Shown here one piece after another: positions 606 through 58,958 of a DNA stretch of 64,000 bases. A program made the translations under genes and the position numbers. A model generated the notes under the pieces. The model saw only the letters and a program-made list of their open reading frames with translations, was not told the origin of the DNA and searched no databases. Every line of letters begins with the position of its first letter. Positions within the stretch are counted from its first letter, which is position 1. Source of the stretch: Candidatus Bathyarchaeota archaeon (GTDB taxonomy: Archaea > Thermoproteota > Bathyarchaeia > Bathyarchaeales > Bathyarchaeaceae); contig CAVOMX010000017.1 of the NCBI GenBank assembly GCA_963697165.1, positions 1-64,000 of the forward strand. Direction: 5' to 3'.

Positions 606-1013
606 GTGAAAACAATGCCAAAGTTGAATGTCTTAGTTTTAACCGGTCGCACTATCGACCAAGGCAGAGGAAAAGAGATGGGCAAATTATCAGATGTGTA
701 CCAGAAAGATGTTACACAATGCCAAATTGATCCAGAAGACATGAAGGCTCTCGATTTGAGGCGAAACGCCATCGTTAAAGTTAGTACAAATTTTGGTAGT
801 GTCGTTTTGAGAGCTGTCAAATCAATTAGGGGTCCTCATCCTAACATGGTTTTTATTAGTTATGGTCCTTGGGCAAGTATGATTTCTGATCCTGAGACCC
901 ATGGATCAGGTATGCCCTCATTAAAGGGGATGTCTGGGGTACTCGAACCTGCACCTAACGAGAAAGTGTTAACTATGCAGGAGTTAGTTAATCAACTCAA
1001 AATGGAGGCTTAG
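606..1013 (+). CDS. fwdD: Formylmethanofuran dehydrogenase subunit D (molybdopterin dinucleotide-binding)
   Basis: Contains LTGRTIDQG, YGPWA and GMPSLKG, and is the first gene of the fwd cluster. W (fwd) versus Mo (fmd) cannot be resolved from sequence. Confidence 0.93.
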   Translation: MKTMPKLNVLVLTGRTIDQGRGKEMGKLSDVYQKDVTQCQIDPEDMKALDLRRNAIVKVSTNFGSVVLRAVKSIRGPHPNMVFISYGPWASMISDPETHGSGMPSLKGMSGVLEPAPNEKVLTMQELVNQLKMEA

Positions 1014-1016
1014 AAT

Positions 1017-2465
1017 GTGCCAGTTGTAACGAGTGTGACTTGTCCTGTTTGTGGAACTTTTTGTGATGACATTGAAATAATTGTTGATGAGAATAACCGT
1101 ATTATTGAAGCTCGAAATGCGTGCGCCATGGGTGCAGCGAAGTTTCTGAACTTTTCTGATCACCGTATTAAGACGCCTCTTATTCGAAAAAATGGTGAAT
1201 TAGTCGAAGCAACTATGGATGAGGCTATCGAAAAGGCAGCTCAGATTCTTGTTGACGCGCACTATCCTATATTGTATGGTTGGAGCAACACTTGCTGCGA
1301 GGCACAACGAGTAGGTGTTGAATTGGCAGAAGAGGTTGGAGGAGTAATGGATAACACTGCAACTGTCTGTCATGGCCCCTCTATTATGGGTGTTCAAGCT
1401 GCTGGTATACCTTCATCTACTCTTGGGCAGTTACGTCATCGTGCAGACCTGATCATCTATTGGGCTAGTAACCCATGGGATGCTCATCCTCGTCATCCAG
1501 AACGATACACCATGTTCTCGGATGGCAGATTCGAAAAGAGTACATGGACACAATATCTTTCTAAATTAAGAGGCGACATGTCAAAGAAGAAGATTCAAAG
1601 AGCCTCTAATCTAGTCTTGAAAGAGGACTTCTGTTTTGCTCATTGTGAATCAGAAGGCTTGCCTTGTAATATGTACCAGAATAAGCGGAGAACCGTTGTT
1701 GTGGATGTTCGCAAGACTCGCACAGCAGATTCTGCAGACTGCTTCATTCAAGTGGAGCCTGGGAAAGACTATGAGCTTCTGCAAGCCTTACGTGTACTCG
1801 TAAATGACGGAGAACTGGACGTTGATGAGGTTGCGGGAATCCCTGTTGAAACTCTTGAGGCTCTAGCTGATGTCATGGTAGGATGCAAACTAGGCATCAT
1901 CTTCTTCGGATTAGGACTAACCATGACCAAAGGAAAACACAGGAACATAGACGCGGCAATCCATCTCACTCGTGATCTGAACAACCGAACAAAATTCCTC
2001 ATCATGCCCATGCGAGGACACTACAACGTAACTGGAGCAAACATAGTTACAACATGGCAAACAGGATACCCCTTCGCTGTTGATCTGTCTAACGGATACC
2101 CCAGATACAATCCGGGAGAAACCTCTTCAACTGATATTCTTCGTCGTGATGAAGCTGATGCTATGCTCGTAATTGCTTCGGATCCAGTTGCGCACTTTCC
2201 AAAAGCATCCTCCAAAAATATTGCAAAACATCCTCTCATATCTATAGAACCTGAAGTTACCCCAACCACAATGTTGGCGGATGTGATTTTGCCTCCTGCT
2301 TTCGCGGGAATAGAGTCGGAGGGAACAGCTTACCGTATGGATCATGTTCCATTGCCTCTGAAGAAGGTTGTAGAACCTCCAGAAGGATTTTTTTCAGATC
2401 AAGAAATTTTAAGGAAACTGCTTCAAAAAGTTCGAGAAATAAAAAAGAAGAGTGACATGAATTGA
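1017..2465 (+). CDS. fwdB: Formylmethanofuran dehydrogenase subunit B
   Basis: Has the N-terminal CPVCGTFCDD 4Fe-4S motif, TVCHGPS (metal-ligating Cys), HPRH and MRGHYNV. Confidence 0.95.
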   Translation: MPVVTSVTCPVCGTFCDDIEIIVDENNRIIEARNACAMGAAKFLNFSDHRIKTPLIRKNGELVEATMDEAIEKAAQILVDAHYPILYGWSNTCCEAQRVGVELAEEVGGVMDNTATVCHGPSIMGVQAAGIPSSTLGQLRHRADLIIYWASNPWDAHPRHPERYTMFSDGRFEKSTWTQYLSKLRGDMSKKKIQRASNLVLKEDFCFAHCESEGLPCNMYQNKRRTVVVDVRKTRTADSADCFIQVEPGKDYELLQALRVLVNDGELDVDEVAGIPVETLEALADVMVGCKLGIIFFGLGLTMTKGKHRNIDAAIHLTRDLNNRTKFLIMPMRGHYNVTGANIVTTWQTGYPFAVDLSNGYPRYNPGETSSTDILRRDEADAMLVIASDPVAHFPKASSKNIAKHPLISIEPEVTPTTMLADVILPPAFAGIESEGTAYRMDHVPLPLKKVVEPPEGFFSDQEILRKLLQKVREIKKKSDMN

Positions 2466-4153
2466 CTGAACTAATAATTAAAAACGGATTCGTTTACGAT
2501 CCGCTGAACCGCATAGACGGCCAAAAAATGGACATATGTATCAGAGATGGGAAGATCGTAAAAACAGTTAAAGATTCAGCGAAGGTCGTCGACGCTTCAG
2601 GCATGGTTGTTATGCCCGGGGGAGTTGACATTCACAGTCACATAGCCGGTGGTGAAGTGGATACTGGACGTTTGCTAAGACCTGAAGACCACGTTAAGGA
2701 TGTTGAATTTAAAACAGCCCTGACCCGGTCTGGAGTTGGTTATTCGATTCCCTCAACATTCACAACAGGTTATCGTTATTCCAAGATGGGTTACACAACT
2801 GTTATGAATCCCTCAATGGCACCTCTTCAGGCACGTCACACTCACGAGGAACTAGCTGACACTCCAATGATTGATAAAGCAACATATCCTCTACTGGGAG
2901 ACTGGTGGTTCAGCCTAGAACACATAAGAGACGGCTTAATCAAAGAAAACGCTGCCCACATAGCATGGATGCTCCGTTCCACAAAGGGATACGCCATAAA
3001 AATTGTTAATCCTGGAGGCTTAGAAGCTTGGGGTTATGGACGAAACGTTCACGGTCTCGATGATATGGTGCCAAACTTTGGTATAACTCCCCGCGAGATT
3101 GTTAGAGGATTATGCAAAGTTAATACTATGCTGAATCTTCCTCACACTATTCATCTTCATACGAACAATCTTGGACAACCCGGAAACTATGTTACAGCAT
3201 TAGAGACTATGAAATGTGTAGAGGATTTGGCGAGAGACGACAAACCTGTGGTGCATATTACGCATATTCAATTCTGCGCTTTTAAGGGTGAAACTTGGGG
3301 AAGCTTCTCTTCTGGAGCAGAAGAAATCTCGAATTACGTTAACAATCATACTCATGTGACTCTTGATGTTGGTCAAGTGGTTTTCTCGGACACAACTACT
3401 ATGACTGCTGATGGTCCCTTCCAGTATGGTCTCTATCACTTGACCGGAAACAAGTGGGCTAATCACGATGTCGAAACCGAGACAAGTGGAGGCATAGTTC
3501 CTTTCATATACAAGCGATCAAGTGCTGTTCACGCGACACAGTGGTCAATCGGGCTTGAGATTATGCTTCTAATTAAAGACCCATGGAAAATCTTAATGAC
3601 AACAGACCATCCTAACGGTGGGCCATTCTTCTTTTACCCCCAGATTATGACTTGGTACATTAGCAAAGATGCAAGAGAAAAAGTGTTTAATAAAATTAAC
3701 AAACGGGCAAGAAAGAAAAGCTTGCTGCCCAGCATCGACAGGGAACTAAGTCTCTATGAGTTGGCTATTGTTACGCGCGCTGGTCAAGCTAAGGCTCTAG
3801 GCTTGAAAGATAAGGGACATTTGGGAGTAGGCGCTGACGCTGATGTCTCAATTTATAACATAAACCCTGAACTTTCCGATCCTTCAAAGAAATTCAACGA
3901 TGCTACAAAAGCATTTCAACGAGCAGCTTACACGATTAAAGATGGAGAAATTGTGGTGAAGGACGGTGAGATTGTGAAGCAGGTCTTCGGAAAAACCTAC
4001 TGGGTCGACGTGGAAACCGCGATGCCCCACGATATTAATGATGATATAAAAAAGAAATTCAAGGACTACTGGACTGTCGAATATGAGAACTATCCTATTC
4101 GCGACGGTTTCTTGCATTCTCCTGCTCCAATCGCCGTCAAAGCGGAGGTCTAA
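2462..4153 (+). CDS. fwdA: Formylmethanofuran dehydrogenase subunit A (amidohydrolase)
   Basis: Contains GGVDIHSH, KIVNPGG, TTDHPNGGPF and LGVGADAD; overlaps the fwdB stop. Confidence 0.96.
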   Translation: MTELIIKNGFVYDPLNRIDGQKMDICIRDGKIVKTVKDSAKVVDASGMVVMPGGVDIHSHIAGGEVDTGRLLRPEDHVKDVEFKTALTRSGVGYSIPSTFTTGYRYSKMGYTTVMNPSMAPLQARHTHEELADTPMIDKATYPLLGDWWFSLEHIRDGLIKENAAHIAWMLRSTKGYAIKIVNPGGLEAWGYGRNVHGLDDMVPNFGITPREIVRGLCKVNTMLNLPHTIHLHTNNLGQPGNYVTALETMKCVEDLARDDKPVVHITHIQFCAFKGETWGSFSSGAEEISNYVNNHTHVTLDVGQVVFSDTTTMTADGPFQYGLYHLTGNKWANHDVETETSGGIVPFIYKRSSAVHATQWSIGLEIMLLIKDPWKILMTTDHPNGGPFFFYPQIMTWYISKDAREKVFNKINKRARKKSLLPSIDRELSLYELAIVTRAGQAKALGLKDKGHLGVGADADVSIYNINPELSDPSKKFNDATKAFQRAAYTIKDGEIVVKDGEIVKQVFGKTYWVDVETAMPHDINDDIKKKFKDYWTVEYENYPIRDGFLHSPAPIAVKAEV

Positions 4154-4156
4154 AAA

Positions 4157-4972
4157 GTGATAACTCTTATCCCAAAACATATGTCCAAATTTCCAATAGA
4201 AGGAAAAAACATATCGCCTGACGTCTTTGCCAACAAATCGACGAAAGAGATAGCAGCTCTTGAAATGTGGGAAGGTAACCGGAAACTTTCGCTTGGAGAT
4301 TTTTTTGACATAAAAATGGACGATTCCTCTTCAGAAGAATTGACGATAAAGATTGAAGGCAATGTAGGTAAGGTGCGAAACATTGGTTTTCGGATGTCCA
4401 TGGGACAAGTAATTGTTGACGGCGACGTTGGTATGCATCTTGGCGAAGAGATGAGTGGCGGTAGTATAGCTGTATCTGGTAATGCTGGTTCATGGGCTGG
4501 CTCACAAATGAAGGATGGAACAATAGAAATCAAAGGCAACGCAGGTGATTACATAGGGGCAGCGTATCGGGGAAGCACCAAGGGAATGAACGGTGGAAAA
4601 GTCATAATTCATGGGAATGCTGGTCATGAAGTCGGATGCTTCATGAGAGATGGGCTTATCAAAATATTGGGAGATGTGGGTATATTCGCGGGTATCCACA
4701 TGAATAATGGAACAATATTTGTTAAAGGCACTTCACAAGGACGAGCTGGCGCACAGATGACTAACGGGAAAATCATTTTAGCAGGACATTCTGAAGATGT
4801 AATGCCAACCTTTACTATCGAAGAAATAAAAGCAAATGTCAAGGTTGACGGCGAAAAGATCGAAGGACCATTTTACAGATTCACAGGTGATATGGCAGAC
4901 AATGGTAAAGGAAAACTGTTTGTCGCTAAGGAAAAAAATTCGTATTTGAGTTTTTACGAAAAATTTCTGTAA
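4157..4972 (+). CDS. fwdC: Formylmethanofuran dehydrogenase subunit C
   Basis: GXGXG beta-helix repeats and the AYRGSTKGM motif. Confidence 0.95.
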   Translation: MITLIPKHMSKFPIEGKNISPDVFANKSTKEIAALEMWEGNRKLSLGDFFDIKMDDSSSEELTIKIEGNVGKVRNIGFRMSMGQVIVDGDVGMHLGEEMSGGSIAVSGNAGSWAGSQMKDGTIEIKGNAGDYIGAAYRGSTKGMNGGKVIIHGNAGHEVGCFMRDGLIKILGDVGIFAGIHMNNGTIFVKGTSQGRAGAQMTNGKIILAGHSEDVMPTFTIEEIKANVKVDGEKIEGPFYRFTGDMADNGKGKLFVAKEKNSYLSFYEKFL

Positions 4973-5012
4973 AATGTTTTTCATGATTTGTAACGAATGA
5001 AGAATGTAAAGG

Positions 5013-5040
5013 AGTGTCTGTTTAGACACTTTATTTTTTT
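5013..5040 (+). terminator. Hairpin plus T-tract after fwdC
   Basis: AGTGTCT-GTTT-AGACACT followed by TTATTTTTTT. Confidence 0.5.
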
Positions 5041-5097
5041 ATTTGTTCTAATGGAAAAGCTTATTGTTGTATAATTAATATTGTTCAAAAGCAACAG

Positions 5098-6108
5098 TTG
5101 CTTAGGAGAATAAGGTTGTCAGAGCATCAATTTAGCTTAAATCTTTCAGCTCTTTCCTTGATCAATAAGCTTTGTAGCGATCCGCAAAAGTATGGTGTAA
5201 TAATTGAAAAAACACCTTCAGGTGCAACTCTTATCGATGCTGGCATAAATGCTAAAGGTGGTTTTTTAGCTGGACAAATAGTCACGGAAATATGTTTGGG
5301 AGGTTATGGTCAAGTACAAATTCTTCCTATGCAATATGGAGATATTTTTTTGCCATCAATTTATGTTCAAACGGATTTCCCTGCAATCTCTACATTAGCT
5401 TCTCAATTTGCTGGATGGAGAATTAAAGTTGATGATTATTCGGCTATTGGTTCTGGTCCTGCTCGTGCAATAGCTCTAAAACCAAAGAAACTCTATAGAA
5501 AACTAGAGTATCAAGAAACTTCCAAAACTGCTGTGATGGTCCTTGAAACTAATAGTAAACCTCCCGAGGAAGTAATAGAAAAAATTTCTGCACAATGCAA
5601 TATTTCTCCAGATCAATTATTTTTGGTTTTAATTTCAACGTCCTGTTTGGCTGGTTCGACTCAAGTTTCAGGAAGAATTGTGGAAACGGGATTACACAAA
5701 TTGGAGAAGTTAGGCTTAGATCCTAAAGTCGTTGAGTATGCGTGGGGTTATGCTCCAATCATTCCTCTTCACCCAAAATTTGATGAAGCAATGGGCAGAA
5801 CAAATGATGCGATTCTTTACGGTGGAACTTCCTATTATATAGTTGATTACGAAAGTGATGATGAACTTGCTGAAATAGTTAAGTTAGCGCCTTCTTCTGC
5901 ATCAAGGATGATTCAAGAAGCAAAAGAGCTTGCTAAGAAAAGTCCGCGATTCTTAGAAATCTTTAAAGAAGCAGGTTTTGATTTTTATGAAATTGATCCC
6001 AACATTTTTGCTCCTGCCATAGTTGTTATAAATAATTTGAGAACAGGAAACATCTTCAAAGCAGGAAGTCTAGATATCGATGTCTTAAAAAGTTCTTTTG
6101 GTCTTTAA
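5098..6108 (+). CDS. mch: Methenyltetrahydromethanopterin cyclohydrolase
   Basis: Contains SQFAGW, GSGPARA, QVSGRIVETGLHKL, MGRTND, DFYEIDP and FAPA. The start may be slightly downstream. Confidence 0.95.
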   Translation: MLRRIRLSEHQFSLNLSALSLINKLCSDPQKYGVIIEKTPSGATLIDAGINAKGGFLAGQIVTEICLGGYGQVQILPMQYGDIFLPSIYVQTDFPAISTLASQFAGWRIKVDDYSAIGSGPARAIALKPKKLYRKLEYQETSKTAVMVLETNSKPPEEVIEKISAQCNISPDQLFLVLISTSCLAGSTQVSGRIVETGLHKLEKLGLDPKVVEYAWGYAPIIPLHPKFDEAMGRTNDAILYGGTSYYIVDYESDDELAEIVKLAPSSASRMIQEAKELAKKSPRFLEIFKEAGFDFYEIDPNIFAPAIVVINNLRTGNIFKAGSLDIDVLKSSFGL

Positions 6109-10600: not shown

Positions 10601-12248
10601 AAAACAACCAGTTCAAATCTCAAAGATTATTGAAGTAATTCCACAAGGATTTGAATTGATTAAAAAACCCGAGTATAGTCAGTTTGAGGATTCTTCAATA
10701 AATATGAAGAATAAACGACTTGATCCAATGATGACCGAAGAGATACACCTAGTGTTAAGATCACCAAATAAAGGATCCTTTGAGATAAAACCGGAAATAA
10801 CTTACATAAACGAAAATGGAAATCAACTATTATATCAAACAGAACCAACTATAATCGAAATTTCAGAAGTTTCTGTTTTAAATCGTGTTCCTACAGGATA
10901 TGACGAATTAGATAAACTTCTCTTTGGCGGAATACCTGAAACGTATCCTGTTGTTTTGACTGCACCATTTTGTGAAGAGAGAGATCTTTTAATAAAACGA
11001 TTTCTAAAAGCAGGAATTGATAAAGATGAAACCATATTTTATTTTACAGTTAAACAAAACGAATTATTAAAACTTGCACAAGACCCTCAATCAAATGTGA
11101 ACATATTTTTATTCAATCCTTTCCACGATAAAACACTAAAAGAATCTCCCAACATTTTCAGACTAAAGGGCATTGAAAAGTTAACCGATATAAGTATTGC
11201 TTTAACAAAGGCACTTCGTCAAAAAGAAAACCCCAATCACAAAGGTAAACGAGCCTGCATCGAAATTATATCAGATGTTTTGTTGCAGCATAATGCTGTC
11301 ACAACTCGAAGGTGGTTAACCGGTCTGATAAACGAATTAAAGAATCAGAGTTTTACGACTTTGGCTGTTATGAATCCATTAATGCATTCTCCTCAGGACG
11401 TACATGCAATACTTGGTCTTTTTGATGGAGAAATTGCCTTAGAGGAACGAAAAACTTCTAGAGGGTCACAAAAAATTTTAAAAATAAACCGAATGGTTAG
11501 TCAAAAATATCTTCTAACTGAGCTACCAATTAAAAAAGAAAAACTAGCCTTTACATCCACAACAACCGAAAGCACTACAAATTATGTCTCAACAGGATCT
11601 GAAGAGCTAGATAAATTATTGATAGGAGGAATACCTCAAACTTATCCTGTTATACTGACAGCTCCATTTTGTGATGAAAGAGATCTACTAATTAAACAAT
11701 TTATTGAAGGGGGGCTAAAAGAGGGAGACACAGTCTTCTATATGTGTACAGAAATAAGTGGTTTAGAAACTCAAATTAACGAATTTAAATCAGAGTTTTA
11801 TCTGTTTATTTGCAACCCCCAAGCTGACATGTTTATCAAAGATTCGACCAATGTTTTCAAATTAAAGAATGGCGTAATGAGTTTAACTGACATTAATATT
11901 GCATTATCACGGATTATTCAGAAAATAGTGGAATCGACAAGTGGTCCACGAAGAATATGTATTAATTTAGTTTCAGATGTCTTACTCCAGCATCATGCGA
12001 TAATTACAAAAAACTGGTTAACTGGACTAATTGCTGAATTGAGGAGTCAGAATTTTACGACTTTGGTTGTTATGAATCCATTAATGCATTCACCCCAAGA
12101 AGTACAGGCGATACTTGGTCTTTTTGATGGAGAAATTGCCTTGGAGGAACGAAAAACTTCTAGAGGGTCACAAAAAACTCTAAAAATAAATCGAATGTAT
12201 AATCAAAAATATCTTATCAATGAACTACCAATAAAAAAGGAAAAATGA
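7614..12248 (+). CDS. Large TPR-like helical protein with Ig-like domain and two C-terminal degenerate KaiC/RecA-like domains
   Basis: ~950 aa of A/E/K/Y-rich helical repeats, then a beta-rich segment (LEINIVNIGK...IKPEITY). Two (V)PTG..ELDKLL.GGIP domains follow, with Walker A replaced by APFC(E/D)ERD. Confidence 0.8.
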   Translation: MASWDFDSILKKAKEQEEKYGWLYAAWSYEHALRSNPEDKFFIAETMQQIGFCYNLAARQSENQEEFKKLQSLAAETYEEAGKNFEKIQNKKNKGKREYCIAFANYLKYRLDSTYDNKTKSLEDCYSLAKTALDHFQNNGYKVYIGMTLNLILECIWEQLRIAPTEEDKHALTQEALQYCSEAISVLIKVGDPHELLDAYYLSSLHHWYAANISDREEACNTLAQISLEYAEKALTISKELENPYSKANSLFAATLTNLFFTDKTKNTLNYAQKMFEQGTIVHDNYLKGVSSYLLALATDDLVPIESNPDEKKKHCEAIIQYAEEGIKYLQIINQNAYLSDTYMVYTQSYSTLAREFATNPIEKLEFSKKAIEIGRKGLEHAINSSSPDAMGESYHALSKALQYHSMLVYTNSEKTRILQESLENRNQYIKIIETALPSNYWILGLGKIYAAQIKTELADLVNDAAEKILLLKEAASYLEEGLIFCEKWITHRSETTLIATTAIFKNLFGKLLENLHHLVQDETYLRKANVVFEDAAKKFERINSPNRVAETYWRIARNQDLLRERQSSASNFAKASKKYEETAQQMPAFSDFFFDYSLYMKAWSEIEKAKDAHDLRQNALAMKHYKKAAEILEQSKGWEFLSSNFLAWAYLERAEFQSRKEKSEKALESFEKANKLFRESKNSLQVFMGHMENREESYVINKLIEVSDLRGAYCFGRIAIEEARVFEKQGNSIAGAEKYGFAAETFQSIISGGSEQIQKELQPIIYLCKAWQKMRIAETKSSSKIYGEAAELFKQACEHAIDQSMGILALAHSNFCKALEAGTDFEISRDIKKYAEAKKYLEIAASNYLKTGFKQAAEYANGTQRLFDAYVYIENAKMELDPEKKTKYYSIAEKVLQYSALSYSNAQHPEKTIQVSQLLENVKEEKELAVVLTEILQAPSIISSTENFVTPTPYEENAVGLENFEGANIQATISQTQQAKSDEDFILEINIVNIGKQPVQISKIIEVIPQGFELIKKPEYSQFEDSSINMKNKRLDPMMTEEIHLVLRSPNKGSFEIKPEITYINENGNQLLYQTEPTIIEISEVSVLNRVPTGYDELDKLLFGGIPETYPVVLTAPFCEERDLLIKRFLKAGIDKDETIFYFTVKQNELLKLAQDPQSNVNIFLFNPFHDKTLKESPNIFRLKGIEKLTDISIALTKALRQKENPNHKGKRACIEIISDVLLQHNAVTTRRWLTGLINELKNQSFTTLAVMNPLMHSPQDVHAILGLFDGEIALEERKTSRGSQKILKINRMVSQKYLLTELPIKKEKLAFTSTTTESTTNYVSTGSEELDKLLIGGIPQTYPVILTAPFCDERDLLIKQFIEGGLKEGDTVFYMCTEISGLETQINEFKSEFYLFICNPQADMFIKDSTNVFKLKNGVMSLTDINIALSRIIQKIVESTSGPRRICINLVSDVLLQHHAIITKNWLTGLIAELRSQNFTTLVVMNPLMHSPQEVQAILGLFDGEIALEERKTSRGSQKTLKINRMYNQKYLINELPIKKEK

Positions 12249-12319
12249 AAAAAACTTACCCAGTAATTAAAAAGTAAAGATGGTAAGATTATTTATTTTT
12301 CAAGTTTACTCATTAGATT

Positions 12320-13072
12320 TTATGGTCCAAACAATGTAACATCTGGGAAAATTTCTATTCCAGTTCTATCAATTGTATAGGGTACCAAGTTTGAATTAGT
12401 TTTAGTTCCTCTCATTTTTACTACCTGTAATGCCCTTGAAGTTGCTCCTGAAGAAAATAGTGTCTGCATCAAAATTACTCCATGTGCTTGGTATTCTTCG
12501 ACTGATACTTCACGATCTAAAGTAAGTCGCTGCAATTCAGTTGTTATCAGTGTAGTAACTTTTAATTCTGCTAAAGATTCAATTAAATCTACAATTGCCA
12601 CTCTTCGTTCGATAGGATCAGGAAATCTGTGGAAAAGTGTTGCAAGTGTATCAATTACAACTCTTTTCGCATCTATTTCATCTATTATATTTTCGATTTT
12701 TTCAACTAGTTTATCGATCTGAAGTTGTTTACCCCTTAAGCTTTGGGCTTCTAAATTCATTCTCTCCCTAAGCATAGCTGCCCTTGACATTTTGGTTGCA
12801 TCCAAAAAGGCAAACTTTCCATCTTTTTCTGCTTGTGAAAAATCCCACCCAAAATTCTCCATTTCAGCATAATAATGTTCTTTTTCTTCATCTATACTGA
12901 CAAAGATTCCATTTTCGTTGTAATCGGAAATTCCCTTATATAAAAATTGAGAAGCAAGAGTAGTCTTTCCAGAGCCGGGTCCTCCAACAACTAAAACAAC
13001 TCTTCGCTCTGGGATTCCTCCATTTAGTAATTCATCTAAACCCTGAACTCCTGTTAGCACTAGTTTAGTCAA
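12320..13072 (-). CDS. KaiC/RAD55-like single-domain ATPase
   Basis: Contains TGVQGLDELLNGGIP, intact Walker A GGPGSGKT, Walker B VVIDT and VKMRG. The TTG start at 13072 has an AGGTG SD; the ORF track extends to 13135. Confidence 0.9.
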   Translation of the reverse strand: MTKLVLTGVQGLDELLNGGIPERRVVLVVGGPGSGKTTLASQFLYKGISDYNENGIFVSIDEEKEHYYAEMENFGWDFSQAEKDGKFAFLDATKMSRAAMLRERMNLEAQSLRGKQLQIDKLVEKIENIIDEIDAKRVVIDTLATLFHRFPDPIERRVAIVDLIESLAELKVTTLITTELQRLTLDREVSVEEYQAHGVILMQTLFSSGATSRALQVVKMRGTKTNSNLVPYTIDRTGIEIFPDVTLFGP

Positions 13073-13308
13073 AGTAAAGCACCTTGTCAATGTAAGGAAA
13101 ATTGTATGGCTATTTAAAAATTGTGTGTCTTCCAAATTCCAATTAATTAAAATAATAAAGAAACAAAAAAATCCGATTAACTGTTTGTTTTTGATTTCAT
13201 AAAAATATAGAAATCCTTGTAAATGGAATTAGCAAACCTTGTATTAATAGACCAGAGTTAAGGGCTCGAACCAAAACTTGTTGATACTTACATTTTTGAA
13301 AAAAGTAT

Positions 13309-14304
13309 TTAATTCACTCTTCCACACGCCACTAAGTGTCCATTACCTTTATCAATTAATTTTTGAGGCTTTTCCATGCATTTATGTTCTTTTGCGTAGA
13401 TGCATCTTGGTTCAAATCTGCAACCTTTGGGAGGATTTATTGGACTCGGAACTTCTCCAGTTAATTCGATTCTATCTTTTTTGGCCACTTTTGGGTCTGG
13501 AATCGGAATTGCAGAAATTAATGCTTTTGTGTATGGGTGAAGCGGAGAATCAAAGAGCTCGTCTGTATCCGCGATTTCAACAAACTTTCCCAAATACATA
13601 ACAGCAACTCGACTGCAAATATGTCGGACCGTGCTCAAGTCATGGGAAATATACAAGTAAGTAATTCCCAATTTACGTTGTAAATCTCGTAGCAGGTTTA
13701 GGATTTGAGCTCGAACAGAGACGTCTAGGGACGCTACAGGTTCATCTGCAATAAGCAATCGGGGTTCCACCGCTAGTGCTCGAGCTATGCAAATCCTCTG
13801 TCTCTGTCCACCACTAAATTCGTGCGGATATCTCTCTGCATGATAGTCTTCTAAACCCACTAATCTTAATAATTCGTAGAGTCTTTCATGCCATTTATTT
13901 TTGGGAACATGTTTATGAATCATAAGTGGTTCCATGATTATGTCAGCTACGGTCATTCTTGGATCGAGCGAAGCGTAAGGATTCTGAAAGACGTACTGCA
14001 TTTTACGCCTTAATTTCAAAATTTCATTCTTATTCTTTGATTTGAAGACATTACCGATCTCTTCGTTATCAATATGGATGTGACCCGAGGTTGGAGGATC
14101 TAAATACAATATTGCTCTAGCGGTAGAGGTTTTTCCGCATCCGCTTTCTCCGACTAAACCAAAAGTTGTTCCCTTATCTACTGAAAAACTTAATTCGTCA
14201 ACCGCATGAATAACTCCAACTTGTTTTTTGAAAAGAATTCCTCTGGAATATATTGGAAAGTGTTTTACCAGGTTTTTAACTTCTAAAAATGGGTGGTCAC
14301 TCAT
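13309..14304 (-). CDS. oppF: Oligopeptide/dipeptide ABC transporter ATPase
   Basis: Contains GESGCGKT, FSGGQRQR, DEPV, HPYT and a C-terminal Cys-containing oligo_HPY domain. Confidence 0.92.
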   Translation of the reverse strand: MSDHPFLEVKNLVKHFPIYSRGILFKKQVGVIHAVDELSFSVDKGTTFGLVGESGCGKTSTARAILYLDPPTSGHIHIDNEEIGNVFKSKNKNEILKLRRKMQYVFQNPYASLDPRMTVADIIMEPLMIHKHVPKNKWHERLYELLRLVGLEDYHAERYPHEFSGGQRQRICIARALAVEPRLLIADEPVASLDVSVRAQILNLLRDLQRKLGITYLYISHDLSTVRHICSRVAVMYLGKFVEIADTDELFDSPLHPYTKALISAIPIPDPKVAKKDRIELTGEVPSPINPPKGCRFEPRCIYAKEHKCMEKPQKLIDKGNGHLVACGRVN

Positions 14305-45168: not shown

Positions 45169-46420
45169 ATGTCTGAAACTCTTGAGATGCCGCTCAATGC
45201 CCTCAACGAATGGCTAAACAAAGAAACAACCGCCATAATTGAACCCCTAAAGGATGACGCAAAAAAGATACTTGAAGACACCAAAACTAAGCTTGAAGAA
45301 CTCTCAGACGCCAGTGACAAATTGTTAGATGATGCAGAAAAAGAGATGGCAAAATCTAGCCGCAAAACATATAATCGCGCAAAATATCTCTACAAACTCG
45401 CTGGAACATTCTCTGATTTAATTGAGAAAGTCACCATTCCCGAAGAAATCAACGGAAAAACCCTTAATGAAACTTCTGAACAAATCGGAAAAACCATAAA
45501 AACAATCGGTCAAGAGAAAACAAAATGGTTCCGCGCGATTTCACCATACTTCATAATTTCTCGTCGAAGATTCGAGGCTTCATTTAAGAGGGCAGATGAT
45601 TCAATCCGAAACTTTACTGACTTCATGACGAAAGAGTACGTTAAGGCTGAAAGCGCTGAAAACGTTTTTTCCAAGATAGATGAGTTACGCCAATCCTTAG
45701 CCGAGTTAAACGAGTACGAAAAAGGTAAAGAAACAAGAGAACAGAAAAAACAGCTTCTTGAAACGAACATAGCCAAGAGTCAACAGAATATTCAGGCAAT
45801 CCAGTGTAAAGACGAGGTAGTTGAACTCGTTCAAATAAACTCGAGAATCAAAGAATTGACTGAAACTGTTAAACATGAATTGCGACACATCCAAAAACCG
45901 CTTCTAAAATTTCAAACATTAGTTAACAGCCCTGGATACAGTCTCTTTCCTGAGGCAACCAGTAAACTTGATGAATACTTGTCTAATCCATTTGATGCCT
46001 TGGCGACAGAAAAAGAAGGTTATCCTCTGCTAAGAAGCATTCTTCAAAAGATAGACACAGTTTTAGATAACAAACAAATGAAACTTAAACCGAGTCGCCT
46101 GAAGAAGGCGAAAGACCAGATAGAAAGTATTGTAAATAAAGAGGCTTTAGTGTCGCTTCAGAAGAACTGCAGCAAAGTTTTAAACAAAAAATATGAGTTG
46201 TCGGCTTCAGGGACAATAAGCGAGTGCAGAGACGAAAGAGCAAGATTACATGATCGCTTGGAAGACTTGCAGACGACAGAAGAGTATCGTTGAAATCAGA
46301 GACAGTAGGTTAGAGAAAGAGCATAATGAAGCACGCAAAAAAATTGACGACCAGAAAAGGGCTCTGGAAAAGATTGTGTCAGATATATCCTCCAAGAATG
46401 TACAGATCGTGATAAATTAA
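45169..46420 (+). CDS. Coiled-coil hypothetical protein (frameshift at ~46275)
   Basis: Heptad-rich; removing one base extends the ORF to TAA at 46418-46420. Confidence 0.65.
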
Positions 46421-46543: not shown

Positions 46544-46996
46544 ATGTTCGAAGATCAAATAGACAAAATTATCGATAAGTATGAGAACGAAAAAGGTATT
46601 TTGATTCAATTATTACTCGATATTCAACACGAGTTTCGTTGGATACCAAAGGATGCAATAACAAGAATAAGTGAGAGGCTCAAGATTCCCTACAGTCAAA
46701 TATTTAGGGTTGCAAGTTTTTACACTGGACTGAGTCTCAAACCTATAGGTCGTCATCTTATTAGAGTATGCGTTGGTACTGCTTGTTATGTTCGAGGAGG
46801 ACCGAGAATTCTGGATGCCGTAGAGAATAAATTAGGGATAAAATCTGGCGAGACAACAAGTGACAATAAGTTCAGTTTAGAGACAGTAAATTGCTTAGGT
46901 TGCTGCGCCTTGGGGCCAGTTATGGAAATTGATGGTCAATATTTTGGAAAGCTCAATTCCGCAAATCTTGAGAAAACACTCTCTAACTATAATTAA
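46544..46996 (+). CDS. NuoE/HydC-like 2Fe-2S subunit
   Basis: Contains VASFY, CVGTAC and CLGCCALGP. Confidence 0.93.
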   Translation: MFEDQIDKIIDKYENEKGILIQLLLDIQHEFRWIPKDAITRISERLKIPYSQIFRVASFYTGLSLKPIGRHLIRVCVGTACYVRGGPRILDAVENKLGIKSGETTSDNKFSLETVNCLGCCALGPVMEIDGQYFGKLNSANLEKTLSNYN

Positions 46997-47014
46997 CAGG
47001 AGAAATGAAAAGTA

Positions 47015-48949
47015 ATGAAACCGTTAAAATCTTCTTCTGATCTGGAAAAACTCCGAAAAAAGATACTTGACAAAAAAGATCCTAAGAGGATAACTATCTC
47101 AGCATGCGTAAGTACTGGTTGTAAAGCTCTTGGCGCCCAAAAAGTCCTTGAAGCTTTCAATGTAGAACTCAAAAAACAGGGCCTAGACAGAAAAGTAGAT
47201 ATTAAAGAAACAGGTTGCCTAGGTTTCTGCGAAAAAGGTCCTAGAATAGTTATCTATCCTGAAGAAATTTACTATTTCCAAGTAGACGCAAAAGATGTAC
47301 CAGAAATCGTATCGAAGACTTTGATCAACAATGAAATTGTTGAAAGGTTACTTTACACTGATCTGATTACTGGCGAAAAAGCACGCTATCTGTCTGAAGT
47401 TCCATTCTATAAGTATCAGAACAGGCTTCTTTTGGAGAGCAATAGTAAAATCGACCCTAAAAAGATAGAGGATTACTTATCGATAGGTGGTTATGCAGCA
47501 TTAGCAAAAGCTCTTTTTCAAATGACACCTGAGGACGTAATGAATGAAGTTAAGGAATCCAAACTTCGCGGTCGGGGTGGAGGCGGTTTCCCAACTTACA
47601 TAAAGTGGGAATCTACCCGTAAGGCACCAGGAGAGCCCAAATATGTTATTGTAAACTGCGACGAAGGCGATCCGGGAGCCTTCATGAACAGGGCGTTGAT
47701 GGAAGGAAATCCACATTCAATTCTTGAGGGCCTTATCATAGGAGCTTATGCAATAGGTTCGGATGAGGGATTCCTTTATGTGCGTCAAGAGTATCCACTC
47801 GCAGTTGAGAACATGGAAATAGCCATTAAAGAAGCAGAAAAGATGGGACTTTTAGGTGAAGACATACTAGGTTCAGGATTTAACTTTAAGGTTAAGATCC
47901 ATAAAGGGGCAGGCGCTTTTGTGTCTGGCGAGTCAAGCGCTCTGATGACTGCAATAGAAGGAAAGGTCGGTGAACCAAGACCTAAATATGTCCACACATC
48001 TGAAAAAGGAGTCTGGGATAAGCCAAGCACACTGAATAATGTCGAAACATGGGCTAACATACCCCCTATAATCAATAATGGTGCTAAATGGTTTGCATCA
48101 ATTGGTACCGAAGCCAGCAAAGGCACCAAAATATTTGCTTTAGCCGGCAAAGTAAACAACACTGGTTTAGTTGAAGTTCCTTTCGGCATTTCATTAAGAG
48201 ATATCATATTCAAAATTGGTGAAGGAATCCGGGATGGAAAGCGATTCAAGGGTGTTCAAACTGGGGGTCCCTCTGGAGGCGTCATCCCTGAGCAGCACTT
48301 AGATTCTCCCGTTGATTTTGATGAACTCACCAAGCTAGGTTCAATGATGGGTTCTGGCGGGATGATCGTAATGGACGAAGATACCTGCATGGTAGAACTA
48401 GCCCGTTACTTTGTAAACTTCTTATGCGATGAATCTTGCGGAAAATGCACACCTTGTCGGGAAGGATTGAGGCAAGCTAGTATAATCTTAAACAGGATCG
48501 TTAGCGGTAAAGGAACAGAGGATGACATAGATAAGCTTGGAAAAATTGCAGAGGTAACCCGCGTTGCTTCCCTATGCGCTTTAGGACAAACATCTGCAAA
48601 TCCCTTGTTAACCACTCTTCGATACTTCAAAAACGAATACGAAGTACACATAAATGAAAAAAGATGTCCATCATTAGTCTGTAAAGACCTGATATCCTAT
48701 TATATTGACCCTGAAAAGTGTCAGGCCTGCATGATTTGTTATAGGAACTGTCCAACGAATGCGATAATCGGGGAAAAGATGAAAATTCACATCGTTGATC
48801 AATCAAAATGCATCAAATGTGGAAGCTGCTATGACTTATGTCCACCCAGATTTAAGGCAGTAAAAAAAATATCTGGTGAAGCGGTTCCACTACCCATTCC
48901 AGAAGAAGAGAGATTGGTCACGAGATTAAGGAAGGAGAAGCGGGACTAG
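47015..48949 (+). CDS. NuoF/HydB-like NAD(H)/FMN subunit with extra Fe-S domains
   Basis: N-terminal C-x4-C...CLGFC, GRGGGGFP, DEGDPGAFM, GGPSGG, CGKCTPC, H..EKRCP..VC and two C-terminal 4Fe-4S motifs. Confidence 0.93.
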   Translation: MKPLKSSSDLEKLRKKILDKKDPKRITISACVSTGCKALGAQKVLEAFNVELKKQGLDRKVDIKETGCLGFCEKGPRIVIYPEEIYYFQVDAKDVPEIVSKTLINNEIVERLLYTDLITGEKARYLSEVPFYKYQNRLLLESNSKIDPKKIEDYLSIGGYAALAKALFQMTPEDVMNEVKESKLRGRGGGGFPTYIKWESTRKAPGEPKYVIVNCDEGDPGAFMNRALMEGNPHSILEGLIIGAYAIGSDEGFLYVRQEYPLAVENMEIAIKEAEKMGLLGEDILGSGFNFKVKIHKGAGAFVSGESSALMTAIEGKVGEPRPKYVHTSEKGVWDKPSTLNNVETWANIPPIINNGAKWFASIGTEASKGTKIFALAGKVNNTGLVEVPFGISLRDIIFKIGEGIRDGKRFKGVQTGGPSGGVIPEQHLDSPVDFDELTKLGSMMGSGGMIVMDEDTCMVELARYFVNFLCDESCGKCTPCREGLRQASIILNRIVSGKGTEDDIDKLGKIAEVTRVASLCALGQTSANPLLTTLRYFKNEYEVHINEKRCPSLVCKDLISYYIDPEKCQACMICYRNCPTNAIIGEKMKIHIVDQSKCIKCGSCYDLCPPRFKAVKKISGEAVPLPIPEEERLVTRLRKEKRD

Positions 48950-48959
48950 AGGAGCGTGA

Positions 48960-50393
48960 ATGAAGATGGAAAGAAGCGAAAAAGAAATCACGTTGAAGAT
49001 AGACGGGAATGAAGTCAATGCCAAAGAAGGAACATCCATTTTTGATGTAGCAAAAACAGTTGGTATTACGATTCCTACGCTCTGTCATAATACTGTTCTT
49101 GAGCCTTTTGGTGCTTGCCGTGTATGTTCGGTGGAAATAACGGACAAGCGAGGAAGGAAAAAGATTGTGACTTCATGCAATTACCCTGTATTTGAAGGAC
49201 TCATTGTTGACACAAAATCTGAGAAAGTATTCAGAACGCGTCAATTGCTCCTTGAGTTGTTACTTGCTCGCTGTCCAAATGCTAAAAAGATACAGGATTT
49301 AGCGCGGGAATATGGCGTTGAGACGCCGAGCTTTTGTGTAGTAGACCCAGAAGAGGATTGTATCCTCTGTGGCTTGTGTGCTCGTGTTTGTGAAGAAAAA
49401 GTTGGCGTATCTGCAATCAATTTTGCGAATCGAGGCGTAGAACGAGAAGTCACATCTCCATATCACACGATATCTGATGATTGCGTGGGATGTGGCGCAT
49501 GCGCTATCGTCTGCCCTACAGACTCAAAAAAAGTTAGAATAAACACCTATCCCATGCTGGAAGAGGACATTAAGGAAGCAGAAAAGAAGTTTCTGAACGG
49601 AACAAAAGACGAATTTTTGGGCGTTTACACCGAGCTTTTTGCAGCAAAAAGTTCTATTGATGGCCAAGATGGAGGAATGGCTACTGCTTTGCTCCTTTCG
49701 GGATTTGAGAAGGGATTGTTTGATGCTGCTATTGTCGTTAAGCGAACAGTTGGATATAAAGCGGAGGCAATTATTGCTGAAACTGCTGATGACATACTGA
49801 ATGCACGAGGAACTAAATATTCAAGAGTTAAAATGATGTCAAAAGTAGGGGAGCTAGTGGAAAAAGGGAAAAAGAGAATAGCTATTGTTGGTACGCCATG
49901 CGAGGTTCGAACAGGAAGAAAAATTCAGCAACAACTACTAAGTAAATACCCCGACCTAGAGATTACCATCGTAGGATTGTTCTGCTTTGAAGCCTTCGAT
50001 TACGACAAACTGAAAGAAGAAATAAAGAGGTTCTTGGGTGTTGATTTGGACAAGGCTGAAAAAACTCAGATACAGAAAGGAAAATTTATAGTTCGAATTG
50101 GTGAAAACGAATACTCTGCAAAGGTGAAAGAATTTCACGATGCTATTCAGGGCGGATGCGCTTACTGTAATGATTTTGTTGCCCGACTTGCCGATGTTTC
50201 AGTTGGTTCAGTAGGAAGCAAGGATGGATATTCAACAGTGATAGTTAGGTCGGATAAAGGAAAGAAGCTTCTGGAAAATGTTGACTTCGTTAAAGGAGAT
50301 TGTAACAAAGAAGACGTGATAAAACTAGCGGATTTCAAAAAGAAAAGAGCGGACAAAAACTTTTCTCCAATTATTAAAGGGACACAGAAGTAG
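48960..50393 (+). CDS. Fusion of HydA/NuoG N-terminal Fe-S module with F420-binding FrhB-like domain
   Basis: Fe-S part: IPTLC...GACRVC...SC, CILCGLC and CVGCGAC. FrhB part: GQDGG..TALL, VGTPC, GLFCFE, GCAYCNDF and DVSVGSVGS. Confidence 0.88.
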   Translation: MKMERSEKEITLKIDGNEVNAKEGTSIFDVAKTVGITIPTLCHNTVLEPFGACRVCSVEITDKRGRKKIVTSCNYPVFEGLIVDTKSEKVFRTRQLLLELLLARCPNAKKIQDLAREYGVETPSFCVVDPEEDCILCGLCARVCEEKVGVSAINFANRGVEREVTSPYHTISDDCVGCGACAIVCPTDSKKVRINTYPMLEEDIKEAEKKFLNGTKDEFLGVYTELFAAKSSIDGQDGGMATALLLSGFEKGLFDAAIVVKRTVGYKAEAIIAETADDILNARGTKYSRVKMMSKVGELVEKGKKRIAIVGTPCEVRTGRKIQQQLLSKYPDLEITIVGLFCFEAFDYDKLKEEIKRFLGVDLDKAEKTQIQKGKFIVRIGENEYSAKVKEFHDAIQGGCAYCNDFVARLADVSVGSVGSKDGYSTVIVRSDKGKKLLENVDFVKGDCNKEDVIKLADFKKKRADKNFSPIIKGTQK

Positions 50394-50413: not shown

Positions 50414-50446
50414 AAATCCTGTTTAGACAGGATTTCTCCTTTTTTT
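50414..50446 (+). terminator. Hairpin plus T-tract after the redox operon
   Basis: AAATCCTGT-TTAG-ACAGGATTT followed by CTCCTTTTTTT. Confidence 0.6.
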
Positions 50447-50449
50447 ATG

Positions 50450-50962
50450 TTACTTTATTGTTCTGAATAGTTTGTATCTTTGTAATCGTGGCCAACCCGT
50501 TTTTGCATATTTCATCATGTCAGGGTTTTTCTTTAGCCAATCCATCATGTGGAAAAAGTTTTTTGCCCGTTTGCTTTCTCGTTCTTCTAGAGGTTCGTAA
50601 CCTAGATTTCTTAGTTCATCGAGGTAAGCGGTTTCCGTGAAGTCCTGTGGATCTCCTGTAACTTTGATTCTGTGGATTCGGTCTTCACCATATTTTCGTT
50701 TTAGTCTCTCGATAACATCGTCAAAGATGTATCCTCTGCAGATGTGAATTTCTTCCTCTGGTTTTGGTTTCATTTCAGCCAGTAGCTTGGTTACAATCTT
50801 TGAGGATTGGGTCATGTATGCTTTTCGTGAAAAAAGTCTGGCTTGAAAATTTTTCACGTCAATAATGTCGTATTTGAATTCGCGGGTTGAATCTTGATAT
50901 GCTGCGATAACAACACCAAAGAGTAGGTCGCCCATTCCCGCATCATCTATAATAATTGTCAT
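50450..50962 (-). CDS. Hypothetical protein, RNase HII-like fold
   Basis: N-terminal IIIDDAG.G.L.FGVVIA resembles the RNase HII DEAG motif. Confidence 0.55.
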   Translation of the reverse strand: MTIIIDDAGMGDLLFGVVIAAYQDSTREFKYDIIDVKNFQARLFSRKAYMTQSSKIVTKLLAEMKPKPEEEIHICRGYIFDDVIERLKRKYGEDRIHRIKVTGDPQDFTETAYLDELRNLGYEPLEERESKRAKNFFHMMDWLKKNPDMMKYAKTGWPRLQRYKLFRTIK

Positions 50963-58193: not shown

Positions 58194-58958
58194 TTGTTAT
58201 TGAATAAAGTCGATGTATTCGCAGTAACTGGTTTGCCTATTGTAAAAGAAGGAGATGATCTTGCCCTACTGATTTGTCAAGCCGCTGAAAAGCAGGGAAC
58301 TCCGATCCAAAATGGTGACGTAATAGTAGTCACTCACGTTGTAGTTTCTAGAGTTGAAGGAAATGTTGTAGACCTCGAAACAGTAACCCCCTCCGAATTT
58401 GCAAAAACAGTAGCTAAAACAACACACAAAGACCCCAAACTCGTTGAAGTTATTCTCAGAGAATCTAAAAGCATCGTACGTATGAGTAACGGAAAACTCA
58501 TCACAGAAAGCAAACAAGGGTTGGTTTGCGCTAACTCAGGGATTGATCAGTCTAACGTTCCCGGAAAAACAGTTGTAGCGCCTTTGCCTAAAGATTCTGA
58601 TAATTCAGCACGAACGATACGAAAAAATGTGCTGAATATTTCTGGAAAAGACGTGGCCGTCATTGTATCGGACACGCATGGACGTCCACTTCGTCAGGGT
58701 GAAATCAACATAGCTTTAGGCACTTCCGGATTCGAGCCACTACGAGATCGAAGAGGCGAAAAAGACCTTTTCGGGTACACAATTAGAATCAAAAGAACCG
58801 CTATCGCTGACGAGTTAGCTTCAGCCGCTGAATTGGTTATAGGACAAACAAATGAAGGCATTCCAGTAGCCATAATTCGTGGATATCTATACCCGAAATC
58901 TGAAACCGCAAACGCAAAGAAAATGATACGTCCTCCGGAAGAAGATTTGTTTATCTAA
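58194..58958 (+). CDS. cofE: Coenzyme F420-0:L-glutamate ligase
   Basis: Contains P.VKEGDDL, VCANSGIDQSN, DTHGRPLR.G, DLFG and ADELASAA. Confidence 0.93.
   Translation: MLLNKVDVFAVTGLPIVKEGDDLALLICQAAEKQGTPIQNGDVIVVTHVVVSRVEGNVVDLETVTPSEFAKTVAKTTHKDPKLVEVILRESKSIVRMSNGKLITESKQGLVCANSGIDQSNVPGKTVVAPLPKDSDNSARTIRKNVLNISGKDVAVIVSDTHGRPLRQGEINIALGTSGFEPLRDRRGEKDLFGYTIRIKRTAIADELASAAELVIGQTNEGIPVAIIRGYLYPKSETANAKKMIRPPEEDLFI

What the first reader, a model, noticed from the sequence alone, without database searches (positions are those of the whole stretch)
46544..50393. HydABC-type complex in which the catalytic domain is replaced by an F420-binding FrhB domain
Seen: a self-contained three-gene operon with a terminator. 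Subunit B has the full architecture of bifurcating HydB: N-terminal 2Fe-2S, the GAFM motif, the Cys/His site and a C-terminal 2x4Fe-4S. Subunit A keeps the Fe-S relay but lacks the His-ligated cluster motif and any H-cluster or molybdopterin domain, ending instead in FrhB. cofE and H4MPT genes in the window indicate F420 use. Inference: an electron-bifurcating or confurcating F420:NAD:ferredoxin oxidoreductase linking NADH, ferredoxin and F420 pools for the archaeal Wood-Ljungdahl pathway. F420-linked members of this family have been predicted bioinformatically; I know of no biochemical characterisation.
Basis: partly seen in the sequence, partly recalled or inferred. Interest (0 to 1): 0.78.

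Follow-up and report, generated by a model that had tools for sequence, protein, structure and literature searches.

The report
Predicted F420-linked bifurcating enzyme in Bathyarchaeia
Three intact genes in a sediment archaeon (Bathyarchaeia) encode an iron-sulfur flavoenzyme predicted to couple NAD(P)H, ferredoxin and coenzyme F420; this type was predicted from methanogens in 2022, we found no bench test of it, and no gene for the F420 ring synthase was found in the genomes that carry it.

Summary
Genes bfuC (150 aa), bfuB (644 aa) and bfuA (477 aa) are intact, co-oriented and conserved. B has every published sequence mark of a bifurcating Bfu core. A has clusters A1, A2 and A4, lacks A3, and ends in an FrhB FAD/[4Fe-4S] domain.

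The design is not new. Schut et al. 2022 predicted it as 'F420-Bfu' (clade 45, Methanosaetaceae only); I found no biochemical test. Our A is 49% identical over its whole length to a Methanothrix protein and 57% to an ANME-1 protein.

- A new host class: 20 of 301 sampled genomes, in two families.
- Linkage to F420 genes (mtd, mer, cofC, cofE, fno) in 17 of 33 loci.
- No F420 hydrogenase over cut-off in 20 carriers.

Two caveats:
- B has Ser where NAD-specific enzymes have Glu, so NADP is possible.
- None of the 20 carriers has cofG, and this genus mostly keeps only cofE, so F420 is probably salvaged or replaced.

Most likely reaction: NADH + reduced ferredoxin + 2 F420 → 2 F420H2, untested.

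The parts
46544..46996 (+). bfuC (HydC/NuoE-like), 150 aa, C1 [2Fe-2S] ligands C76, C81, C117, C121
   Evidence: Pfam PF01257 E 1.5e-50; ligands kept in 28 of 28 aligned sequences
47015..48949 (+). bfuB (HydB/NuoF-like), 644 aa. B5 site C31/36/68/72; FMN/NAD(P) site (D216, A222, M224, F302, S307, K324); GGPSG 417-421; B1 C475/478/481/521; B2 site C458/H545/C551/C556; B3 and B4 [4Fe-4S] at 569-579 and 599-609
   Evidence: criteria from PMC7311640, PMC12018979 and PMC9304861 supplement
48960..50393 (+). bfuA::frhB fusion, 477 aa. A1 [2Fe-2S] C42/53/56/73; A2 and A4 [4Fe-4S] C134-144 and C175-185; no A3; FrhB domain about 220-445 with [4Fe-4S] Cys 314/342/400/403 and QDGG, TKY and DxSxGSxGS motifs
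   Evidence: the model's best fold matches are F420-reducing subunits; 49% identity over 471 aa to Methanothrix sp. P0201
50414..50435 (.). 9-bp hairpin with T-rich tails on both strands, between bfuA and the convergent gene 50450-50962; possible terminator
   Evidence: z -2.0; not more than chance for the region as a whole
58194..58958 (+). cofE, F420-0:glutamate ligase (context; the only cof gene found in this genome)
   Evidence: TIGR01916 289 bits vs cut-off 181; cofC/D/G/H not found
606..6108 (+). fwdDBAC-type genes and mch (context, H4MPT C1 pathway)
   Evidence: Pfam domains; mch over cut-off

Best explanation
The three genes encode a Bfu-family iron-sulfur flavoprotein with an FrhB head that is predicted to couple NADH and reduced ferredoxin to reduction of two F420, likely supplying F420H2 to H4MPT one-carbon enzymes in an archaeon that probably salvages its F420. 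Shown from sequence: the operon, all cluster ligands, the bifurcation marks, full-length homology to the Methanothrix F420-Bfu A subunit, the F420 gene neighbourhood, and the lack of detectable cofG/cofH and FrhA. Inferred by analogy with WorABC (9MQX): NADH gives a hydride to FMN in B; ferredoxin docks at B3/B4 and feeds C1; the FMN-B1-C1 site merges the two inputs; electrons run B1-A1-A2-A4 to the FrhB [4Fe-4S] and FAD, which passes hydride to F420. The reaction would be reversible, and the reverse direction (F420H2 to NAD+ and ferredoxin) would serve oxidation of methyl groups.
For: All published Bfu marks are present and conserved in 27-29 of 29 aligned B sequences (criteria); B5 ligands are kept in 25-28 of 29. 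B's two motif rows match the Methanosaeta harundinacea F420-Bfu rows at 15/16 and 14/16 positions (compared by eye). The best PDB match for A's N-terminal part is WorA of clade 45, whose route is A4-A2-A1-B1. A's C-terminal domain best matches Fsr, the F420-reducing CODH zeta subunit and FrhB; the zeta subunit was shown to reduce F420. Its four Cys are invariant in 29/29 and 110/110 sequences. 17 of 33 loci carry mtd, mer, cofC, cofE or fno in the flanks; mtd is the gene directly upstream in several, and mer-cofC-bfuCBA, with cdhA downstream in some, is a second arrangement. A distant locus (L069) has mer directly upstream and cofD nearby. All 9 genus genomes with Mtd carry the A gene. No FrhA over cut-off in 20 of 20 carriers and no Fno over cut-off in this genome. 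With published potentials, confurcation is -12 to -19 kJ while NADH alone is +12 to +15 kJ.
Against: No biochemistry was found for any F420-Bfu. S307 (29/29) replaces the NAD-selecting Glu. cofG: 0 of 61 relatives and no overlap between 20 carriers and 18 cofG genomes among 301; cofH 0 of 20 carriers; cofC 4 of 20; cofD 1 of 25 in the genus. Mer was not found in this genome, and it occurs in 8 of 10 genus members without the operon, so another F420H2 source must exist. 6 of 15 genus carriers lack Mtd. The FrhB fold also occurs in plant HCAR, which does not use F420 (recalled). The predicted model is unreliable over the ferredoxin part (pLDDT < 50 at 135-169), so no cluster distances were obtained.
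Confidence: 0.55

Rival explanations
1. Same three-way coupling, but with NADP(H): F420H2, NADP+ and ferredoxin are linked, so the enzyme stands in for Fno and Nfn rather than recycling NADH.
For: S307 replaces Glu in 29 of 29 B sequences. T. kivui HydB has Ser at this position and uses NADP only. The C. autoethanogenum FdhH2 row also has Ser (its NADP use is recalled). No Fno over cut-off in this genome.
Against: A. mobile WorB has the same GESS and KY-H motifs, is NAD-linked and was solved with NAD(H) bound. Ser is shared by all six clade-45 rows, so it may be a lineage mark. With NADPH at -380 mV, F420 reduction needs no ferredoxin. One carrier locus has fno next door.
Confidence: 0.2
2. 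Bifurcating core as above, but the third substrate in this genus is not mature F420: it is FO, another deazaflavin or flavin, or a partner protein served by the FrhB-type FAD.
For: No cofG/cofH in carriers and no cofC/cofD in most of the genus. The FrhB fold also occurs in HCAR. The same head is fused to a membrane RnfD-like domain in relatives.
Against: cofE is kept in 20 of 25 genus genomes, 14 of 15 carriers, together with F420-type Mtd or Mer in 14 of 15 carriers. The head is 47-60% identical to Methanothrix, ANME-1 and Methanolliviera orthologues, organisms that use F420.
Confidence: 0.15
3. A ferredoxin-independent F420H2:NAD(P)+ transhydrogenase whose extra clusters are idle.
For: F420 (-340 to -360 mV) and NAD (-320/-280 mV) are close enough that F420H2 to NAD+ is downhill by 4-15 kJ. 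A few homologues have lost N-terminal B5 cysteines (4 of 29, some through truncated starts).
Against: None of the non-bifurcating marks (Thr/Ser232, Lys/Ser/Ala234, Tyr367, no GGPSG, no B2-B5) is present. B2, B3 and B4 ligands are invariant in 29 of 29. B5 can be a zinc site in active enzymes.
Confidence: 0.07

Closest known systems
F420-Bfu, predicted Type 1 BfuABC, BfuB clade 45 (Schut et al. 2022, PMC9304861)
   Same: Three subunits; A with A1, A2, A4 and a fused F420/FAD domain; matching B motif rows; 49% full-length identity of A to a Methanothrix sp. protein.
   Different: Host is Bathyarchaeia, whereas the paper names only Methanosaetaceae (2-3 sequences). It sits beside mtd, mer or cdh genes, suggesting a central C1 role rather than the biosynthetic role proposed there. 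Carriers lack detectable FO synthase.
A. mobile WorABCSL (PDB 9MQX, PMC12318220), characterised clade-45 Bfu
   Same: B with GESS and KY-H motifs (734 bits); A is the best PDB match to residues 10-188 and also lacks A3.
   Different: Type 2: electrons come from separate tungsten WorSL subunits; here an FrhB domain is fused to A.
FrhB family F420 reductase modules (Frh beta, Fsr-N, FpoF, ethanotroph CODH zeta 8RIU and FwdI)
   Same: Fold, FAD motifs and four Cys; top sequence and structure matches.
   Different: About 30-37% identity, below the FrhB/FpoF equivalog cut-offs; wired to a Bfu core.
FrhB8 'NuoF-Trx' group of ANME (Chadwick et al. 2022, PMC9012536)
   Same: FrhB paralogue clustered with NuoF and thioredoxin-like genes; an ANME-1 protein is 57% identical to A.
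   Different: Described as almost ANME-exclusive, with no mechanism proposed; identity with our group was not tested (their alignment files were not read).
Nfn-Bfu (Stn/NfnABC) transhydrogenases
   Same: Same BC core and the same logic: a two-electron carrier as third substrate through an FAD in A.
   Different: A is about 1,000 aa or more with an NfnL-like NADP domain and uses A3; B has GEET.

Membership tests
Bfu (bifurcating BfuBC core) | BfuB with FMN domain, SLBB region, B1 cluster and C-terminal 2x[4Fe-4S]; BfuC with C1 [2Fe-2S] | tested here: met
   Pfam (the SLBB model itself did not score, but GGPSG is present); ligands invariant
Bfu (bifurcating BfuBC core) | B2 site: three Cys and one His, conserved in all 1,558 Bfu sequences | tested here: met
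   C458, H545, C551, C556 in 29 of 29 (definition)
Bfu (bifurcating BfuBC core) | Ala/Glu232, Met234, Phe367 and GGPSG (T. maritima numbering) | tested here: met
   A222, M224, F302, GGPSG 417-421, each 29 of 29
Bfu (bifurcating BfuBC core) | N-terminal thioredoxin-like domain with B5 site | tested here: met
   C31, C36, C68, C72 in the query; 25-28 of 29 sequences; [2Fe-2S] or Zn not determinable
Bfu (bifurcating BfuBC core) | Tightly coupled turnover of NAD(P), ferredoxin and a third substrate | not testable with these tools
   needs purified enzyme
F420-Bfu (Type 1, clade 45) | F420/FAD catalytic domain fused to BfuA | tested here: met
F420-Bfu (Type 1, clade 45) | BfuA holds only A1, A2 and A4 | tested here: met
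   12 Cys ligands invariant; A3 motif in 0 of 120 and 0 of 110
F420-Bfu (Type 1, clade 45) | BfuB falls in clade 45 | tested here: inconclusive
   Shares GES[S/T] with all six clade-45 rows and none of the ten others; groups with GES-type B proteins at SH-aLRT 99 in a quick tree, but no named reference was in the tree, and by raw score NiFe-HydB (791 bits) beats WorB (734)
F420-Bfu (Type 1, clade 45) | NAD(H) as the pyridine nucleotide | tested here: inconclusive
   S307 instead of Glu; found in both an NAD enzyme (WorB) and an NADP enzyme (T. kivui HydB)
F420-Bfu (Type 1, clade 45) | F420 binding and turnover; host contains F420 | not testable with these tools
   motifs and context fit, but cofC/D/G/H were not found
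Non-bifurcating NADH diaphorase (NuoEFG/HoxFU/Hyd1) | Loss of B2-B5, Tyr at 367, no GGPSG | tested here: not met
[FeFe]-hydrogenase HydABC / Fdh-Bfu | H-cluster or pterin domain in A or in adjacent genes | tested here: not met
   none in A or in flanking genes

The most novel reading that the evidence does not exclude
These Bathyarchaeia cannot build the F420 ring and scavenge FO or F420 from neighbours (or use an unknown substitute). They took an F420-Bfu from the ANME-1/Methanothrix side of the archaea and use it as their main F420H2 hub in place of F420 hydrogenase, possibly with NADP. This would be the missing F420H2 source of bathyarchaeial C1 metabolism and a case of F420 cross-feeding.
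Probability: 0.3. Interest if true: 0.7.

Novelty: new member of a known kind. Interest (0 to 1): 0.42.

Why it matters
F420-Bfu is a predicted Bfu class for which I found no biochemical test. Loh et al. 2021 state that the source of F420H2 in Bathyarchaeia is unclear. A compact, soluble three-gene version that needs no special metal maturation is an easy target to test both questions. The wider range (two Bathyarchaeia families, ANME-1, Methanolliviera, Methanothrix) means archaeal redox models may be missing a link between the NAD(P), ferredoxin and F420 pools. The absence of cofG/cofH in carriers raises a separate, testable question of cofactor salvage. The enzyme design itself is already in print, which caps the surprise.

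Tried and rejected
1) 'Ser307 means NADP': not accepted as a marker, because NAD-linked WorB has it too.
2) 'The Bathyarchaeia swapped in a new FrhB head', suggested by 33-34% identity to locus L069's head: rejected. The head is 47-60% identical to Methanothrix, ANME-1 and Methanolliviera orthologues, and the L069 group is the divergent one.
3) Expression: one RNA run with a 0.07 share of words; one 266-nt contig matched bfuB exactly, which is not evidence of transcription.
4) The promoter scan is bacterial and gave fewer sites than chance (5 vs 9.5); no archaeal promoter test was made.
5) AlphaFold model: good for the A1 and FrhB domains, poor for the ferredoxin part, so no cluster distances.
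6) The careful BfuB tree did not finish; only the quick tree was used, without named references, leaving out L066, L068, L091, L128, one gut-metagenome locus and B matches of 350 aa or fewer.
7) The search of 50%-identity representatives and the cluster-member look-up could not be run, so the full range outside Bathyarchaeia rests on a few source names.
8) Literature searches for a characterised F420-Bfu returned only the 2022 prediction and the ANME FrhB8 note; the library lacks most subscription papers.
9) No complex prediction was run: A-B-C binding would pass by likeness to solved structures.
Full report
Observation. The window is contig C17 of a 1.99 Mb genome, 81% complete. Its closest named relatives are Ca. 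Bathyarchaeum records (92% identity in A). Three co-oriented ORFs lie at 46544-46996, 47015-48949 and 48960-50393, 18 and 10 bp apart. The genes have the same lengths as in a close relative and changes fall mostly at third codon positions, although other genes of this assembly are frameshifted. The downstream hairpin at 50414-50435 is real but weak.

The BC core. Published marks of bifurcating B subunits were taken from Losey 2020 (PMC7311640, passages), the T. sibiricus NfnABC paper (PMC12018979, passages and section 7), the C. saccharolyticus paper (PMC11829005, passages) and Schut 2022 (PMC9304861, parts 1-3 of 9, passages and its one supplement). All are met: A222, M224, F302, GGPSG, D216, the B2 set C458/H545/C551/C556, B1, B3, B4 and C1. 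Each of these is invariant among 29 B or 28 C sequences (query plus homologues above 55% identity and 85% coverage from the 33 GTDB loci). B5 cysteines are kept in 25-28 of 29. The nine best PDB matches are all Bfu B subunits.

Subunit A. Residues 10-188 best match WorA of A. mobile (9MQX), which lacks A3 and passes electrons A4-A2-A1-B1 (PMC12318220, passages). The A3 motif is absent in 120 of 120 and 110 of 110 sequences. Residues 220-445 best match Fsr, the ethanotroph CODH zeta subunit and FrhB by sequence and by fold. The zeta-containing CODH reduces F420 in vitro (PMC11493965, passages). The four cluster Cys and the QDGG motif are invariant in 110 of 110 distant homologues.

What is known. 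Schut 2022 names F420-Bfu: Type 1, clade 45, two or three sequences, Methanosaetaceae only, A1/A2/A4, proposed to oxidise NADH and ferredoxin to make F420H2, not characterised. Our A is 49% identical over 471 aa to a Methanothrix sp. protein, 57% to an ANME-1 protein and 58% to a Methanolliviera protein. B's motif rows agree with the M. harundinacea F420-Bfu rows at 29 of 32 positions, and with the Dehalococcoides Mbh rows at 28 of 32 (by eye), so motifs place it in clade 45 without singling out the F420 sub-clade. In a quick tree of 43 B sequences, the 13 from FrhB-fused operons form one group (SH-aLRT 100) inside the GES-type group (99); no named reference was included. Chadwick 2022 (PMC9012536, section 31) noted an FrhB8 group clustered with NuoF and thioredoxin genes in ANME; it may be the same family, which I did not test. 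Searches found no biochemical study and no report from Bathyarchaeia. Passages of two Bathyarchaeia papers and one alkane-oxidiser paper did not mention it. Supplements other than Schut's were not read and could list such genes.

Range. The A gene is in 15 of 25 genomes of the genus (two of them only in pieces, one lacking the first 50 residues) and in 1 of 36 other relatives. It is in 20 of 301 class genomes, in two families only. In quick trees of the FrhB head the bathyarchaeial sequences nest among halobacteriotal ones; with midpoint rooting and no test, transfer from that side is only a suggestion. Single records labelled Acidoferrum, Lokiarchaeota and 'Ca. Gl...' nest inside the bathyarchaeial group and may be mis-binned.

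Context. Of 33 loci, 17 have mtd (7), mer (6), cofC (8), cofE (4) or fno (1) in the flanks, and 22 have these or cdhA, mch or fwdC. The 11 without include seven contigs under 10 kb. No chance control was run and kin share gene order, but three different arrangements occur: mtd-bfuCBA; mer-cofC-bfuCBA, with cdhA downstream in some; and mer-bfuCBA with cofD nearby in the distant locus L069. All 9 genus genomes with Mtd carry the operon. None of 20 carriers has FrhA over cut-off. This genome has Mtd (cut at a contig end), CdhC, POR-family genes, two NiFe loci that are not Frh, and a second FrhB-family gene beside the membrane hydrogenase-like operon. Against a simple story: Mer was not found here, 8 of 10 non-carriers have Mer, and 6 of 15 carriers lack Mtd.

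The cofactor gap. cofC, cofD, cofG and cofH were not found in this genome. cofG was found in 0 of 61 relatives and in 18 of 301 class genomes, none among the 20 carriers. cofH was found in 0 of 20 carriers, cofC in 4 of 20, all in the other family, and cofD in 1 of 25 in the genus. cofE is kept in 20 of 25. Controls rang in known F420 producers each time. A review lists Bathyarchaeota as predicted F420 producers (PMC8498797, passages), and Loh 2021 reports biosynthesis enzymes in its phylotypes; for these two families my searches do not show the ring synthase. Salvage of F420 (this genus) or FO (the other family) is the simplest reading; it is inferred.

Nucleotide. The Glu said to exclude NADP (Tsi E286) aligns with S307, invariant in 29 of 29. 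T. kivui HydB has Ser and uses NADP only (PMC8578170, passages). WorB has Ser and is NAD-linked; I did not see whether NADP was tested on it. The question is open, with NAD favoured because WorB shares the whole motif region and because only with NAD is F420 the middle potential.

Energetics. With NAD at -280, ferredoxin at -500 and F420 at -340 to -360 mV (values from Schut 2022), making 2 F420H2 is -19 to -12 kJ, and NADH alone is uphill by 12-15 kJ. With ferredoxin at -420 to -450 mV the reaction lies between -10 and +4 kJ, so it could run either way.

Verdict. A real, conserved operon and a member by sequence of the predicted F420-Bfu class, in a new host class, with good contextual support for F420-linked C1 metabolism. 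Activity, direction, nucleotide and cofactor supply are untested. Earlier scan notes on Methanothrix copies reached the same family name; they are not independent support.

Noticed in passing
L013:6914-9070, L014:6669-8837, L015:6784-8940, L021:6137-8263, L022:6257-8410: About 720-aa RnfD-2x[4Fe-4S]-FrhB fusion among radical SAM genes in relatives. Its FrhB head is 60-67% identical to that of BfuA and groups with bathyarchaeial BfuA heads, so the two share a recent origin. Earlier scan notes describe this fusion.
   Followed up: partly
G000:C11:54408-55706 (- strand): This genome has the RnfD-ferredoxin part, frameshifted in the assembly, ending without the FrhB head; BfuA or another FrhB protein might serve it in trans.
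   Followed up: partly
G000:C6:12126-16216: Second Bfu-like locus: C, a B with GEET and GGPSG (split by a frameshift near 14230), a 159-aa Cys-rich ORF, and a 399-aa A whose N-terminal half resembles that ORF and which has no recognised catalytic domain; a GcvH-like gene is upstream (by eye).
   Followed up: no
L069:2977-4428 and P0121-P0146: A second F420-Bfu lineage (Methanomicrobia/Halobacteriota names) with B 69% identical to ours but an FrhB head only about 33% identical, suggesting a replaced or fast-evolving head.
   Followed up: partly
L072:4989-6755, L073:4977-6666: Clade-45-type BfuA fused to what looks by eye like the C-terminal part of HdrA, behind a GEST-type BfuB.
   Followed up: no
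window 45169-46417: The upstream gene with no Pfam match is frameshifted near 46270; its homologue runs on to 46417, so the true gap before bfuC is about 125 bp. It precedes the operon in 8 of 33 loci.
   Followed up: partly
class sample of 301 genomes: cofG is confined to 18 genomes, mainly three families, though F420-type Mtd, Mer and cofE are common in the relatives sampled.
   Followed up: partly
window 7614-13135: A 1544-aa protein ending in a KaiC-like ATPase domain, convergent with a 271-aa KaiC-like gene.
   Followed up: no
window 50450-50962 (- strand): 170-aa ORF with no Pfam or NCBIfam match, convergent with bfuA.
   Followed up: no
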